From the NCBI RefSeq assembly GCF_963853765.1, contig NC_088854.1:32364001-32428000 (forward strand): a stretch of DNA of 64,000 bases, written 5' to 3'. This DNA comes from Magallana gigas. Lineage: Eukaryota. The position numbers are program-made. Within the stretch, counting starts at the first letter, position 1. Each line of letters starts with the position of its first letter. Positions 41,701 to 47,700 of this stretch are shown piece after piece.

Positions 41701-44700
41701 GTTTCTGTATGGGGTTTTTTCTGACTTAAAAATCAAGGCCATATTATGAAAGAAAATAATTGGTAAAAAGAGTTGAAAATTGTATGAGATGTGTAAGTTA
41801 TCATATTTTCTTAAATAACACATATGAAAGAAATAAGATTGGTAGAAAAGAATTAAAAAGGGTTGAAAATTATATGAGAATGAGATATCTAATTAAGATG
41901 TTTCACTGAATCAAATTTTCTAATTTGACATAGTTTAGGAATTTTGGTTTGATAGTTGGATCTTTTTTTAAAGCGCTTAGCCATAGCTCAGCGCTTTATT
42001 GTCGTTAGACTTCTACTTCCGGTGCATCAAATAACTGCCCCCTATGGACAAAAGTATCCATTATTCAAAATTGGTTAGGGAACCTGTTTCAGTGGTTTAT
42101 GCACATAACTGCACGGGCTATTGTGAATCGTACGGGCTATTGTGAATTTGATGTACGGGGCTTACAAACATCATTGCAGGGGGTGCCACGCAGTGATAAG
42201 GATATAGTGCGAATACAGAAGCTGAAATGTTATATACATATATCTGTTATATACATACAGAAGCTGGATTAGCGCTTTTCAGTACTATCAGTACTTTGAT
42301 TTTTAATTACAGAGCAGACAAGTGCAGACTACGACAGTGAACTTGAACTGTCCAGTTCCAGTGGACAAATGGAAGATGGCCAGAGTAGCCCTAATACTGG
42401 ATCCAGGTGTGTTTCTCTCACTTGTTTTGTTGTAAAAAGAGACATCTTTATCAAATTTTCATCTTTAATACCGGTAATGCGTTTCAGTACGTTGTTTCAC
42501 TGTTTTAGTATATATAAGTAAGAAAGGTGATACTCACAGTGATGACGTTTTTTTTTTAATATAAAAAGGTCTCCCTGAGGATGGTGTAAAGAAATCAAGG
42601 TCCTATTTGATGCTGATGAAGGCTCCCATGATGCCTATACAAGAAGAGGAATCCATTCGATCAGATGAGGAAGAAGAGGAACTAATTGAACTAGAACAGG
42701 GAGAAGAGATCGAGAACTCTGAGCAGTCTCAAATGTCCTACCGGCCAATGAGCCCCAAAGCCCCACCCCTGCCGCCAGGACTGGCCCTTCAGAAAGAACC
42801 GCCTATGGGTGGTGACCAAGCTTCATCATCTTCAAAGCAAGCAGGTGAAGCAAAACAGTCAAGTATCAAAGGTAGCAAGGACTCTGTATACAGCCAGGGC
42901 AAGTCAGAAGGAAAGAAAGAAAGTCGCACAGCCACACCTACAAAAGCCAGTGAAAGATCTGAACAGCAGTCACCAACGGAGGCAAAGCCTGGTTCCCGAC
43001 CCCCAACAAGGACTAGCGTGACCAGTAAGAAGTCGAAAGGAAAAGAAGAAAAGGTAGCTTCAGAGGAAGAGGTTAACGACAAGGGAAGTGTTACCAATAC
43101 CAGGCCTCGATCAGAGCATGAAGATCCAGTCACTCAGGTGGAGATTGAACACAGTGAGGATGAGGTTGGAGGGGACACTGAGAGAAAAACTCAACCGGTA
43201 AGACATCTGATTATGAGAACAAACAAACATAAAGTATTTTTTTATATGCCCTATTTGTATACTGCACTTCTGGTTTTTATTCATATATTTTTTAAAAAGT
43301 TTCTAATCATCAATAATTATTTTTAAATGGTTGGTTGATTTAATAGCTTATCTATAGAAATTAATCTTCAAGTACCGGTACTCATTATTTTTCATTCATA
43401 TACATGTGTATCATTTATTGAATAACCTCATTGTGACAATATTTTGTGGTGTTTTTAGCTCACCGAGACGAAGTCAAGGAGAGCTTATGCTATACCCTCG
43501 GCGTCGGCGGTGGCGTCGGCGTCGGCGTCGGCGTCCAGACCTGGTTAAAGTTTTTGTTGCAAGTCCTGTATCTAAGCTATTACTTGTCCTATCTTCACCA
43601 AACTTGCATGGATGATGCATCTGGACCTACTTATGGACTTGAAAGACTTGGATGCTGAATCTGGGTCCTAAATTTCAGATGCTGGAGGAGGTTAAGGTTG
43701 TTGGACCAGGTTAAAGTTTTTGTTGCAGGTGCCCTTTGATAGCAGTATCTTAGTTACTGCTGGTCTGTACTTCACCAAACTTGCATGGATGGTGTGCCTT
43801 ATGATACTGATGCACCAGACAGGCTTGAGTGCTGAATCTGAGCTATAGGTTTCGGATGCTGGAGGAGGTTAAGGTTTTTGGAGCAGGTTAAAGTTTTTGT
43901 TGCGGGTGCCCTTTGATAGCAATATCTAAGTTACTACTGGTCCTAACTTCACCAAACTTGTATGGATGATGCGTCTTATGATACTGATGCACCTGACAAG
44001 CTTGAATGCTGAATCTGAGCAATAGGTTTCGGATGCTGGAAGAGGTTAAGGTTTTTAGAGCTGGTTAAAGTTTTTGTTGCAGGTGCCCTCTGATGATTAA
44101 TCTTAGTTACTACTGGTCCTAACTTCACCAAACTTGTATGGATGGTGCGTCTTATGATACTGATGCACCTGACAAGCTTGAATGCTGAATCTGAGCAATA
44201 GGTTTCGGATGCTGGAAGAGGTTAAGGTTTTTAGAGCTGGTTAAGTTTTTGTTGCAGGTGCCCTCTGATGATTATATCTTAGTTACTACTGGTCCTAACT
44301 TCACCAAACTTGTATGGATGGTGCGTCTTATGATACTGATGCACCTGACAAGCTTGAATGCTGAATCTGAGCAATAGGTTTCGGATGCTGGAGGAGGTTA
44401 AGGTTTTAAGAGCTGGTTAGATAAAGTTTTTGAAACAGGTGCCCTCTGATGATGATATCTTAGTTAATACTTGTCCTTACTTCACCAGAATTCCATGGAT
44501 GGTGTGTCTTATGATACTGATGCACCTGACAGGCTTGAATGCATAGTCTGGTTTCGGATGCTGGATAAAGTTAAGTTTTTAGGAACAGGTCACATGTTTA
44601 ATAGATGATAGTACTATTTTAAACTTGCATAGTTGATTTAACTGTAATATGAATGAATCGCAGAGGTAGCTTCAGATGCAGAGCTTGATCTCCATTATCA

Positions 44701-47700
44701 AGGATGCTAAAAAATAAATCTTAGTTATTACTGGTCTTAACTTCGCCAAACTTGAATGGATGGTGTGTCTTATGATACAGATGCACCTGACAGGCATGGA
44801 TGCTGAATCTGAGCCATAGGTTGCGGATGCGGGAGGAAGTTAAGGTTTTAATTGCTAGTGCCCTCTGATGATGATATCTTAGTTATTACTGGTCCAAACT
44901 TCACCAAAATTGCATGGATGATGCGTCTTATGATACAAATGCACCTGATGGGCTTGAATGCTGAATCTGAGCCATAGGTTTCGGATGCTGGATGAGGTTT
45001 AGTTTTTTGGAACAGGTCACATGTTTTATAGATGATAGCTTGCATAGTTGATTTAACTTTATTATAAATTAAATGCAGAGGTTGCTTCAGAAGCAGAGCC
45101 TGATCTCCATTATCAAGGATGCTAAAGAAATCTCCTACCTCACTCAAACCAGCTCGATAGATAGATGTGTTTGTTGATAAATGATATAACATGATTCCTA
45201 TGATAAAGTATTGTATGATATGAAACAATATTGTTTGATATGATACAATATGATATCATATGTTATATTATAAAAAGTTATACGATACGATATGATATTG
45301 TATCAATTTTTTTGATATTTTATGATATGATTATGTATCATGATATTGTTATGTATAGTATTGTATATTATTATACAATATTGTATGATATTATATTGTA
45401 TTTTTAATTTATTATTTTATCACATGATACAATTACATAAGATATTGCAAAATATTATATTGTATCCTATGATACAATATTGTATATTCTATAATATTGT
45501 ATCATACAATATTGTATAATATGATATTGGTTTCAGTAATATAGAATTATATCACATGAAATTGTATTATATGATATTGTAATATTATTAATATAATATT
45601 GTATCATACGATAATGTATGATATGATATTGGTTTATATGATATATTATCATATCACATGAAATTGTATTATATGATATTGTAATATATTTTATTGTGTC
45701 ATATGATGCAATATGTATAATATAATAATGTATTTTATAATATTTTACCATATCACATAATATTGTATCATTTGATAAGATACAATGTTGGAATCAAATT
45801 ATATTGTATTATATGATATAATATCATATAATGTATGAAATATGTTTCAGTGTCATTCAATACAATATCATTCTATATTATACAATATAATATCATGTTT
45901 CAGTGTTATGATGTATTATGTAATATGATATTGTAATATGATACTATATTGTATTATATTTTAGGATATTGTATTATGTGATCAAATACAATAAGGTATA
46001 ACACAATACAATGTCATACCATATGTTACAATATCAAATCTCATTATTGTTTATTACGGTATTTTATTTATTATATGATATATATAATATTAGAAATATG
46101 ACATGATGCAATATTTAATTTTATATCATTGTATTGATTAACATATGAACATATGATTATCATAAAAAAATTTATCAGATGATATACGATATTTTGTCAA
46201 AACAGAATCCATGAATATCCAAGATCATAAAGTATGATTTTCATATAAAATGATAAAGGTGGTCTTATGAAGGTGATGTATCATAAGGGTGATGCTCCGT
46301 CTCGGTGAGCTTAGTAATCTATGATTACCTATGTTTTTAATATGAAACTGTTCAGGTTTCTAACAGTCTTTATATTAACATTCCAGGCTAGTGACAGAAG
46401 TTCAGAAGAAAATCAGAATCAAAATGCAATGAAAAAATCTGTATCAAGCTCATCTCTGAAAAAAGGAGAATCAACACAGAGTTTGAAAAAAGGAGAATCA
46501 ACACAAAGTTTAAAGAAGGGGTCATCAACACAGAGTTTGAAAAAGGGGGAATCAACACAGAGTTTGAAAAAGGGGGAATCAACACAGAGTTTAAAGAAAG
46601 GTGAATCAACACAGAGTTTAAAGAAAGGGGAATCAACACAGAGTTTAAAGAAAGGGGAATCAACACAGAGTTTAAAGAAAGGGGAATCAACTCAAAGTTT
46701 GAAGAAAGGTAGTTCAACACAGAGTCTTACAAAACAACCATCAACCCAGAACTTGAAAAAGGGAACATCTGGGGAAAGTTTATACAATGCAAAATCTAAG
46801 GAAAGTTTGAAGAAAGGTACTTCAAGCGAAAATCTCAAGACCACAAGGTCAAAAGACAGTTCTGAAGGTCAACCCTCTGAAACCTTACAGAAATCAAAAT
46901 CTAAAGAGAGTTTGAAGAAGTCATCTTCTGCAGATGAAGCCAAAGAGTCTTCAGAGCCACAGGCCACAAACAGGGAGTCGGAAAAATCAAAATCTTCCCC
47001 ACCACCCACTAACCGCAGTGTGGAGGAGAAACAGAATTCAGAATCCCAGAAAGAGGCTACAGCAACTACTGATGATGCTACCAACCAAAAACAGGAGGAG
47101 AGTGTAGCAGACGACAAGCAAGCAGAGACCAGCAAAGAGCAAGAACCAGCTAAACAGGAGGAGACAACTGGTGCCAAAGACAAGGATGAGAGTGATAAGG
47201 ATATGCTGTGATCTTACATCAAAATTTGATGGATATTTTTTGTTTACATGAACTGCCATTCTTATTTTGATTTGTGAAGATCCAACTTCTCTTTGAGGAA
47301 AAATAATATTTAGAACCATGATATGTTATTGATTATTTTATCTCTTATGTTGTTGCGTCATTTTATTGAACAAAATATTTCAACAAATGACATATTAAAA
47401 AAAAATGTGCTTTGTTGTTGATAAATTTACATTTATATAAAAATAATTATTACCAAAAAATTGTTGTAGTTATGTGCCTTAAAGTTCATAGTTAATTATA
47501 CATGGTATTTATTTTAAATAAGCATACCGTCCAAAACTTGCTGAATTTTACACTATAAACAGAAGTGTTTACAAGTGTTTCCTCATTTTAATTGATGATG
47601 ATATCTAGCTACTTCCGTCCAAAGTCCAAACATTATTTTTGAAAACTGCTGATCTAAGCAAAATAACCTCTACATTTATTATTTTCTCATACTTGTCAAA

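What the first reader, a model, noticed from the sequence alone, without database searches (positions are those of the whole stretch)
42380..47211. ~480-aa disordered C-terminal extension beyond the usual dynein terminus
Seen: after KWKMARVALILDP, where dynein heavy chains normally stop within a few residues, the frame continues through two large exons rich in S, K, E, T and Q. From the linker motif onward the protein is about 4,400 aa, well over a thousand residues more than the equivalent span of typical dyneins (estimate from memory). Inference: an added tether or second microtubule-contacting tail.
Basis: partly seen in the sequence, partly recalled or inferred. Interest (0 to 1): 0.65.

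Follow-up and report, generated by a model that had tools for sequence, protein, structure and literature searches.

The report
Disordered tail on an oyster dynein
The roughly 480-residue serine-, lysine- and glutamate-rich tail after the normal end of this oyster dynein heavy chain is real and shared by molluscs, a brachiopod and an annelid, but such tails were already reported for this odd dynein class and their function is still unknown.

Summary
The window is oyster DNA (Crassostrea/Magallana gigas or a near relative), not human. A divergent dynein heavy chain runs on the + strand from base 52 to 47211. After ...KWKMARVALILDP (42367-42405), two GT-AG introns join exon E1 (42569-43197) and exon E2 (46387-47208, TGA 47209-11), adding 484 residues. 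Solved dyneins end 2-6 residues after that point.

The RefSeq model XP_019929141.1 uses exactly these junctions. Relatives in 19 named species carry homologous tails. In clam-like fragments the dynein end and the tail start lie in one uninterrupted ORF.

The tail is predicted disordered. It is not featureless: two short motifs are conserved from oyster to annelid.

The gene fits Kollmar's (2016) class-13 dyneins, described there as having low-complexity C-terminal extensions, so the feature is already known. Apparently unreported are the conserved motifs and a degenerate AAA1 ATP site in 15 of 15 relatives.

Microtubule contact is untested. The tail's net charge is -3 here and -63 to +13 in relatives, which argues against a conserved basic microtubule-binding tail. 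My best reading is a flexible arm carrying docking or regulatory motifs.

The parts
42313..42406 (+). Last canonical dynein exon (SRQVQTTTVNLNCPVPVDKWKMARVALILDP plus the first base of a Gly codon)
   Evidence: It aligns to the last residues of solved dyneins.
42407..42568 (+). Intron A: 162 nt, GT...AG, phase 1. If retained it gives an in-frame stop at 42433-42435. It holds no AATAAA or ATTAAA.
   Evidence: The junction is identical in XP_019929141.1. The intron is absent in the Mercenaria-like fragments P0016, P0017 and P0020.
42569..43197 (+). Extension exon E1 (209 codons from 42571), predicted disordered
42571..42609 (+). Motif M1: (G)LPEDGVKKSRSYL, directly after the canonical end
   Evidence: G, P, K and R are invariant in the 20-row alignment (alignment shown). 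AF2 gives a short helix at E1 residues 10-17, with a block pLDDT of 69.
42640..42726 (+). Acidic linker (QEEESIRSDEEEEELIELEQGEEIENSEQ)
   Evidence: The stretch before the PLP of M2 is net negative in 18 of 20 tails.
42727..42798 (+). Motif M2: SQMSYRPMSPKAPPLPPGLALQKE. It is proline-rich and holds a P-x-S-P site.
   Evidence: S, Q, S, Y, P, A, P, L and P are invariant across 20 rows, including Lingula and Owenia. It has the highest pLDDT in E1 (74-77) but no secondary structure.
43102..43149 (+). Motif M3: RPRSEHEDPVTQVEIE
   Evidence: Conserved in the bivalve rows only. Its likeness to an LC8 site is a lead, not tested.
43198..46386 (+). Intron B: 3189 nt, GT...AG, phase 0, filled with tandem repeats
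   Evidence: The junction is identical in XP_019929141.1.
46387..47211 (+). Extension exon E2 (274 codons plus TGA)
   Evidence: It aligns to the C-terminal ends of the C. gigas, C. virginica, Ostrea and Saccostrea models, down to the stop in the C. gigas and C. virginica models and to within 4 codons of it in the Ostrea and Saccostrea models.
46454..46764 (+). 27-bp tandem repeat, 11.5 copies, encoding SLKKG(E/S)STQ
   Evidence: The same 9-aa unit occurs in the Pinctada, C. virginica and Saccostrea tails.
47394..47399 (+). First poly(A)-signal-like hexamer after the stop (ATTAAA). The next is AATAAA at 47990.

Best explanation
Shown: the 484 residues are the genuine C-terminal end of a divergent axonemal-type dynein heavy chain of an oyster. 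The gene has the hallmarks of Kollmar's class 13 (DHC13). Its N-terminal tail resembles an outer-arm beta chain, its motor is strongly diverged, its AAA5 region is longer, and it carries a low-complexity C-terminal extension. The extension is intrinsically disordered.

Shown: it has an ancient proximal part (E1). E1 holds two short linear motifs kept from bivalves to an annelid. M1 is GLPEDGxKKSRSY, next to the C-terminal cap. M2 is SQ[LM]SY[RK]P[MLI][ST]P[KQ]AxPLP, which follows an acidic linker.

Shown: it also has a fast-evolving distal part (E2), built largely by expansion of a 27-bp minisatellite.

Inferred: the tail works as a flexible arm projecting from the C-terminal face of the AAA ring. 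It would present M1 and M2 as docking or phospho-regulated sites for a partner protein, or for a neighbouring dynein. The variable S/K/E-rich remainder would act as a spacer. The partner is unknown.
For: It belongs to the gene. The junctions are the same as in RefSeq XP_019929141.1, whose exons are 98-100% identical to the window.

Of the 20 best relatives examined, 17 have tails of 215-483 aa after the canonical end. One unnamed relative has 15 aa, and two distant Ciona dyneins have 0. All 16 named ones match E1, with blastp E from 1e-14 (Lingula) and 3e-15 (Owenia) down to 1e-107.

Four further models (Saccostrea, Mya, Dreissena, Solemya) pair E1 with the Dynein_C domain.

The fragments P0016, P0017 and P0020 are 70-81% identical to Mercenaria. 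They hold the canonical end and the tail start in one ORF, flanked by intron-like read-through.

There is no poly(A) signal before E2's stop. No Pfam, Rfam or tRNA feature lies on either strand nearby or downstream.

Disorder. Mean normalised hydropathy is 0.331, below the charge-hydropathy boundary of 0.416. AF2 of the Saccostrea orthologue gives pLDDT 29-43 over the whole tail, against 62-91 for the C-terminal domain. AF2 of the window's E1 gives mean pLDDT 53 and pTM 0.17.

Motifs. There are 13 invariant columns in the first 70 tail residues of a 20-row alignment and none after them.

Class. Pfam shows the dynein modules. The tail of the C. virginica orthologue best matches outer-arm beta chains: E = 5e-85, against 2e-26 for DNAH5. 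The distance between the AAA5 and AAA6 anchors is 596 aa, against 398 in DNAH9. Kollmar 2016, PMC5100056, section 9 (read in full) describes class-13 C-terminal low-complexity extensions.
Against: No transcript or peptide data could be consulted, and all full-length models are computational predictions.

The AF2 monomer model shows no confident packing of M1 or M2 onto the C-terminal domain, so no docking surface is identified.

M2 does not keep a strict SH3 or WW ligand consensus in every species. The final P varies and the K is Q in three rows. The consensus rules themselves are recalled, not taken from a call.

E2 is poorly conserved (45-68% identity to the other three oysters' models) and may be neutral.

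One unnamed full-length relative (P0038, 42% identical over its length) has only a 15-aa tail.

The alignments are shallow (17-20 rows).
Confidence: 0.55

Rival explanations
1. One reading: the tail is a second microtubule-contacting element, an electrostatic tether to the acidic tubulin tails, like the basic domains of some microtubule-associated proteins.
For: The oyster repeat block and its surroundings (extension residues about 226-390) are net basic, +2 to +6 per 30-residue window. E1 residues about 76-165 are mildly basic and rich in S, T, P and K.
Against: The whole tail has net charge -3 (calculated pI 5.85 for the tail of the near-identical RefSeq model). It has three acidic blocks. 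Orthologous tails run from -63 to +13 and 13 of 20 are negative. Biomphalaria's tail is -62. The conserved elements are not basic patches. No binding test was possible.
Confidence: 0.12
2. Most of the tail, above all E2, is functionally neutral low-complexity sequence. It would be produced by minisatellite expansion and tolerated at a free C-terminus.
For: A 27-bp tandem repeat of 11.5 copies lies in E2. The order of repeat units differs between the window and XP_019929141.1. Tail lengths range from 215 to 530 aa, and the sequence after M3 cannot be aligned between orders. Kollmar 2016 (section 9) saw no conservation beyond composition.
Against: M1 and M2 are invariant across phyla. E1 is 76-81% identical to the other three oysters' models, against 85-93% for neighbouring motor exons. 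The 9-aa unit and the acidic C-terminal end are shared within oysters, and the unit also with Pinctada. So neutrality could hold for parts of the tail, not for all of it.
Confidence: 0.2
3. The last two exons belong to a separate downstream gene wrongly joined to the dynein. Alternatively, the main product ends shortly after 42406 through retention of intron A.
For: If intron A is retained, the frame gives a near-canonical end (GVFLSLVLL, then stop). E1 contains internal Met codons. No expression data were available.
Against: Clam-like fragments hold the dynein end and the tail start in a single ORF. The fusion is the same in 19 named species annotated by different groups. Neither the 162-nt intron nor the 500 nt after E1 holds a poly(A) signal. 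No other gene signature lies downstream.
Confidence: 0.05
4. In bivalves the motif ...HEDPVTQVEIE (M3) is a binding site for the dynein light chain LC8. An LC8 dimer would then cross-link two tails, or link a tail to another LC8 client.
For: LC8 binds 8-residue motifs in disordered regions. These are usually anchored by TQT 'or a variation' of it (PMC6607443, passages seen). M3 sits in a disordered region and has T-Q-V with D at -4 and E at +2. It is conserved in all 12 bivalve rows. pLDDT rises to 64 there.
Against: TQV is not named in the passages I saw, and the same paper stresses that many peptides with a TQT anchor do not bind. The motif is absent from the gastropod, brachiopod and annelid rows. 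No LC8 sequence was at hand, so no complex prediction was run.
Confidence: 0.1

Closest known systems
Class-13 dynein heavy chains (DHC13) of Kollmar 2016, Mol Biol Evol 33:3249 (PMC5100056)
   Same: Both are metazoan, have a strongly diverged motor and a longer AAA5, and have an N-terminal tail like the class-4 outer-arm chains. [quoted passage not shown] All of this is seen here.
   Different: The paper states that the extensions show no conservation apart from composition. Within Lophotrochozoa I find two invariant motifs. The paper did not analyse the ATP sites; AAA1 is degenerate here. I could not place the gene in Kollmar's tree because the supplements with the sequences and species lists are closed.
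DNAHX / dynein-X of sea urchin sperm (Chai et al. 2025, bioRxiv 10.1101/2025.01.18.633724)
   Same: Both are over-long dynein heavy chains (5272 aa there; 5484-6145 aa for full-length orthologues here). Both have many disordered insertions and a poorly conserved AAA1 site, and both are found in aquatic animals but not in mammals.
   Different: DNAHX is closest to DNAH8 and has a disrupted stalk and microtubule-binding domain. This gene is closest to DNAH9, DNAH17 and the outer-arm beta chains and matches Pfam's stalk model at 1.2e-15. No C-terminal extension is described in the sections I read (5, 6, 7, 11, 12).
DNHD1 (Kollmar's class 11)
   Same: It is also an 'orphan' dynein with disordered insertions, and it lacks the AAA1 Walker B catalytic residues according to Chai et al. 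(section 12).
   Different: None of the 20 best relatives carries that name. No reference sequence was compared, so its relation to this gene is untested.
Class-10 fungal dyneins with a 1500-aa C-terminal WD40 tail (Kollmar 2016, section 9)
   Same: Another dynein class whose chain continues far past the usual C-terminus.
   Different: That tail is a folded WD40 propeller. This one is disordered and matches no Pfam family.
C-terminal cap of cytoplasmic dynein (Nicholas et al. 2015, PMC4339881; only the search listing and the start of the abstract were seen)
   Same: It shows that the C-terminal region of the motor can tune force and processivity. A tail attached there is therefore well placed to regulate.
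   Different: The cap is a folded part of the canonical motor. Here the addition begins only after it.

Membership tests
Dynein heavy chain | Linker (DHC_N2), AAA1-AAA6 modules, stalk and C-terminal domain, in that order | tested here: met
   Pfam hits run in order along the + strand from 52 to 40979: DHC_N2, AAA_6, AAA_7, AAA lids, AAA_8, MT, AAA_9, Dynein_heavy, AAA_lid_11, Dynein_C.
Class-13 dynein (Kollmar 2016) | C-terminal extension of low complexity beyond the C-sequence | tested here: met
   484 aa follow the position where solved dyneins end. S+K+E+T+Q = 62%.
Class-13 dynein (Kollmar 2016) | Longer AAA5 domain | tested here: met
   The anchors in AAA5 and AAA6 lie 596 aa apart, against 398 in DNAH9. 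The AAA6 anchor is weak (E = 0.004-0.007).
Class-13 dynein (Kollmar 2016) | N-terminal tail homologous to class-4 (outer-arm beta/alpha) chains | tested here: met
   This was tested on the C. virginica orthologue, because the window lacks the 5' part of the gene. Outer-arm beta chains score 5e-85 to 3e-46, DNAH5 2e-26 and Chlamydomonas gamma 3e-20.
Class-13 dynein (Kollmar 2016) | Groups with class-13 reference sequences in a motor-domain tree | not tested
DNAHX / probable class 12 | Aberrant stalk without a typical microtubule-binding domain; closest canonical relative DNAH8 | tested here: not met
   Pfam's MT stalk model matches at 1.2e-15. The nearest solved chains are DNAH9, DNAH17 and the beta chains.
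DNHD1 / class 11 | Orthology to vertebrate DNHD1 | not tested
   No reference was compared. None of the 20 best relatives carries that name.
Basic microtubule-binding tail | Net positive charge, conserved among orthologues | tested here: not met
   Net charge is -3 here. Tails range from -63 to +13 and 13 of 20 are negative.
LC8-binding motif | An 8-residue strand in a disordered region, anchored by TQT or a variant of it | tested here: inconclusive
   The motif PVTQVEIE is present and conserved in bivalves only. The rules come from passages of PMC6607443. No binding prediction could be run.
Catalytically active dynein motor | AAA1 Walker A GK[T/S] and Walker B D-E | tested here: not met
   The window has TGKFE where solved dyneins have TGKTE, and CFDNYNH where they have CFDEFNR. 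The same loss is seen in 15 of 15 orthologues.

The most novel reading that the evidence does not exclude
This class-13 chain is a non-hydrolysing paralogue of the outer-arm beta chain. It may be the so far unidentified second heavy chain of the sea urchin 'dynein-X' complex. Kollmar predicted a class-12/class-13 heterodimer, and Chai et al. found that DNAHX, which looks like class 12, pairs with an unknown heavy chain that has a normal stalk. On this reading the conserved M1/M2 motifs on the disordered C-terminal arm would be the handle by which the complex is docked, transported or switched, possibly under phosphorylation at the P-x-S-P site.
Probability: 0.15. Interest if true: 0.7.

Novelty: already known. 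Interest (0 to 1): 0.3.

Why it matters
The extension itself is already annotated in RefSeq and was described for the class in 2016, so it does not change the picture.

What may be worth a specialist's time is what surrounds it. A whole class of very long relatives of the outer-arm beta chain appears to have given up ATP hydrolysis at AAA1. Yet this class has kept, for the time since bivalves and annelids diverged, two short motifs on a disordered C-terminal arm. That points to a scaffolding or regulatory dynein rather than a motor.

It also gives concrete peptides (M1, M2) with which to fish for partners. And it gives a testable candidate for the unknown heavy chain of dynein-X.

Tried and rejected
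- **DNHD1.** I first suspected DNHD1 because of the weak Pfam scores and the insertions. I dropped it because the tail and motor are closest to outer-arm beta chains and no relative bears that name. It was not tested against a reference.
- **DNAHX orthology.** Rejected on the stalk match and on the nearest relatives.
- **Pfam on the extension.** Scans of E1, E2 and seven minus-strand ORFs under the finding gave 0 families.
- **RNA features.** Rfam and tRNA scans of 42000-48500 gave nothing.
- **Downstream region.** A Pfam scan of 53 ORFs on both strands in 47300-64000 gave only low-complexity hits below the cut-offs.
- **ESM Atlas with E1.** No usable hit.
- **The listing of cluster members.** Their taxa remain unknown except by likeness to named proteins.
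- **Representative-library search with E1.** It returned 14 short fragments (52-423 aa) and no full-length protein. They were useful only for the single-ORF evidence.
- **Oyster sperm proteome papers naming this protein.** 3 papers held the terms and none was relevant by title or abstract.
- **Complex prediction.** No job was sent. The only partner I would have tested (LC8) was not available as a session sequence.
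Full report
**What the window is.** The window has no N and is about 35% G+C. Pfam hits in dynein order run along the + strand from base 52 to 40979: linker DHC_N2, AAA_6, AAA_7, lids, AAA_8, stalk MT, AAA_9, Dynein_heavy, AAA_lid_11, Dynein_C. Its exons are 98-100% identical to RefSeq XP_019929141.1, 'dynein beta chain, ciliary isoform X4' of Crassostrea gigas (P0022, 3952 aa). So this is Pacific oyster DNA or a very close relative. It is not human.

**The observation.** The sequence shows the following.
- The exon ending ...KWKMARVALILDP lies at 42367-42405, with G at 42406.
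- A 162-nt GT-AG intron follows.
- E1 (42569-43197) gives 209 codons.
- A 3189-nt GT-AG intron follows.
- E2 (46387-47208) gives 274 codons, then TGA.

Together these make 484 residues, of which 62% are S, K, E, T or Q.

The ORFs that hold E2 and E1 are the two longest in all six frames of the window. 0 of 5000 shuffles of either exon stayed open.

In solved structures the residue aligned to ...VALIL lies 2-6 residues from the chain's end. This holds for the 18 of 36 matched chains whose alignment reaches that point.

The span is 4438 aa in the C. virginica orthologue, against 3027 aa in DNAH9 and DNAH17. Kollmar's Figure 2 legend gives about 3300 residues for a motor domain.

**Does the tail belong to the dynein?** I searched the spliced model exon by exon. 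I did not search or fold a joined model of the window; that step was left out. The joined context comes from public models.
- E1 alone found four proteins of 556-1026 aa, from Saccostrea, Mya, Dreissena and Solemya. All carry Pfam Dynein_C, and in all of them the E1-like sequence follows ...ILD[PA]G directly.
- A search with the C-terminal region of P0022 scored only the 1955 candidates that shared most words, and gave 20 proteins.
  - 17 of them have 215-483 aa beyond the canonical end.
  - One unnamed relative has 15 aa.
  - Two distant Ciona dyneins have none.
- The 16 named proteins with tails come from nine bivalves, five gastropods, the brachiopod Lingula and the annelid Owenia. Full-length models are 5484-6145 aa.

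The strongest single point comes from three unnamed fragments, P0016, P0017 and P0020, which are 70-81% identical to Mercenaria. Each holds the canonical end and the start of the tail in one uninterrupted ORF. The ORF is flanked by what looks like intron read-through, so no splice is needed there.

Other checks agree.
- Neither intron A nor the 500 nt after E1 holds a poly(A) signal. The first such signals follow the TGA: ATTAAA at 47394 and AATAAA at 47990.
- Nothing else is recognisable on either strand under the finding or downstream.

No transcript or peptide data could be consulted. All full-length models are predictions. A minor short isoform made by retaining intron A (stop at 42433-35) cannot be excluded.

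**Anatomy of the tail.** It is predicted disordered.
- Mean normalised hydropathy is 0.331, below the boundary of 0.416.
- AF2 of the Saccostrea orthologue with a 20-row alignment gives pLDDT 29-43 throughout the tail. The C-terminal domain scores 62-91.
- AF2 of the window's own E1 gives mean pLDDT 53 and pTM 0.17. The only helix is at residues 10-17.

It is not featureless, however. An alignment of 20 tails shows four kinds of element.
- **M1:** G-[LV]-P-E-[DG]-G-x-K-K-S-R-S-Y, immediately after the canonical end.
- **An acidic linker** follows M1.
- **M2:** S-Q-[LM]-S-Y-[RK]-P-x-[ST]-P-[KQ]-A-x-P-L-P. Nine of its columns are invariant, even in Lingula and Owenia. This stretch has the highest pLDDT in E1 (74-77).
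- **M3:** RPRSEHEDP[VI]TQ[VIM]EIE, which is confined to bivalves.

The distal part varies. In the window it is a 27-bp tandem repeat of 11.5 copies encoding SLKKG(E/S)STQ. C. virginica, Saccostrea and Pinctada share that unit. A short acidic end is conserved among oysters.

Identity to the other three oysters' models is 76-81% for E1 and 45-68% for E2. Neighbouring motor exons show 85-93%.

**What kind of dynein.**
- The motor is far from every solved dynein. The best hit is E = 2e-15 over about 490 residues.
- The N-terminal tail of the C. virginica orthologue matches outer-arm beta chains strongly: 5e-85, against 2e-26 for DNAH5.
- The AAA5-to-AAA6 span is about 200 residues longer than in DNAH9.
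- The stalk still matches Pfam's model.

This is the profile that Kollmar (2016, PMC5100056; section 9 read in full, plus passages of sections 5, 7, 8 and 10) gives for class 13. [quoted passage not shown] He adds that their N-terminal tails resemble class 4, and he suggests a class-12/class-13 heterodimer at outer-arm positions.

I could not run a tree against class-13 references. The supplements, which may list the species and sequences and could show whether the oyster gene was in that data set, are closed.

**What seems not to be in print.** I ran four searches.
- 'dynein heavy chain' + 'C-terminal extension': 22 papers.
- 'DHC13' / 'class-13' / 'dynein': 10 papers.
- The oyster sperm search: 3 papers.
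- 'DNAHX': 2 papers.

Only Kollmar 2016 deals with these extensions, and it reports no conservation. The motifs M1 and M2 contradict that statement, at least for Lophotrochozoa. The library holds open-access papers only.

**A side observation that bears on mechanism.** The AAA1 ATP site is degenerate. Where solved dyneins have TGKTE and CFDEFNR, the window has TGKFE and CFDNYNH. All 15 orthologues examined lack the Walker A Thr/Ser and the Walker B Asp-Glu pair.

Chai et al. (2025 preprint; abstract and sections 5, 6, 7, 11 and 12 read) describe such a loss in DNAHX. DNAHX is an over-long, DNAH8-like, stalk-disrupted heavy chain of sea urchin sperm. It pairs with an unidentified second heavy chain that has a normal stalk. 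That DNAHX corresponds to Kollmar's class 12 is my inference.

The present gene is not DNAHX, because its stalk is normal and it is beta-like. It could be the partner. Against that, their mass spectrometry names only one odd heavy chain (section 5).

**Mechanism.**
- Shown: the tail is a translated-frame, conserved, disordered C-terminal arm with two ancient linear motifs.
- Inferred: the arm projects from the C-terminal cap of a probably non-hydrolysing ring and presents M1 and M2 as docking or phospho-regulated sites. The variable remainder would serve as spacer.
- Recalled, not from a call: the P-x-[ST]-P and proline-rich character of M2 recalls kinase sites and ligands of SH3 or WW domains. 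The strict consensus is not kept in all rows.

It lacks support as a conserved function: net charge is -3 here and -63 to +13 across 20 tails, 13 of them negative.

An LC8 site at M3 is a lead only (PMC6607443, passages seen).

**Verdict.**
- The functional interpretation is open and leans against a basic microtubule binder.
- The feature is already known at the level of the class and of the annotation.
- Interest is modest. It is raised somewhat by the conserved motifs, the dead AAA1 site and the possible link to dynein-X.

**Unchecked.**
- Transcripts and proteomes.
- Class-13 genes outside Lophotrochozoa.
- The closed collections metagenome contigs and viral contigs.
- The papers' supplements.

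Noticed in passing
window 9109-9252 and 9515-9703 (+): The AAA1 ATP site is degenerate. The Walker A reads TGKFE where solved dyneins have TGKTE. The Walker B reads CFDNYNH where they have CFDEFNR. The same loss is seen in 15 of 15 orthologues from bivalves, gastropods, Lingula and Owenia, so the class probably cannot hydrolyse ATP at its main site.
   Followed up: yes
window 10915-11265, 28386-29142, 32396-32593 and 33782-33853 (+): Long internal insertions rich in E, K, S and D lie inside the motor: in the AAA1 region, between the stalk and AAA5, and within AAA5. They account for most of the other roughly 900 extra residues.
   Followed up: partly
window 43570-44542, 44720-45014 and 45177-45979: Intron B is filled with a 177-bp tandem repeat (5.5 copies), a related 158-bp pair and AT-rich short-period repeats. 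No Pfam, Rfam or tRNA match was found.
   Followed up: no
window 42407-42568; proteins P0016, P0017, P0020: The 162-nt intron between the canonical end and the tail is missing in Mercenaria-like fragments, where both lie in one ORF. Those fragments instead break after ...SQLSYR, so intron positions within the tail differ between bivalve orders.
   Followed up: partly
window 46454-46764 versus P0022: The order of the GES and GSS variants of the 9-aa repeat differs between the window and XP_019929141.1, although the total length is the same. E1 differs by one residue (KEEKV against KENV). This looks like allelic or strain variation in the minisatellite.
   Followed up: partly
protein P0038 (unnamed, 5295 aa): This full-length relative is 42% identical to the Haliotis and Mercenaria orthologues over its whole length, yet it ends only 15 residues after the canonical terminus. 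Either a lineage lacks the tail or the model is truncated.
   Followed up: no
proteins P0011 and P0019 (unnamed, 58 and 52 aa): These E1-like fragments differ from the oyster sequence mainly by P to F/L/S, H to Y and T to I. That is the pattern expected from C-to-T conversion of the DNA, so they look like artefactual or chemically converted reads rather than paralogues.
   Followed up: no
window 4201-4348 and 9197-9343 (+): GA-type microsatellites give ERERER-like ORFs in introns. They cause spurious Pfam hits to DUF3915 and Atrophin-1.
   Followed up: no
window 47300-64000, both strands: None of the 53 ORFs of 60 aa or more matches a Pfam family above its cut-off. The 16.8 kb downstream of the dynein looks gene-poor at this level of analysis.
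   Followed up: partly
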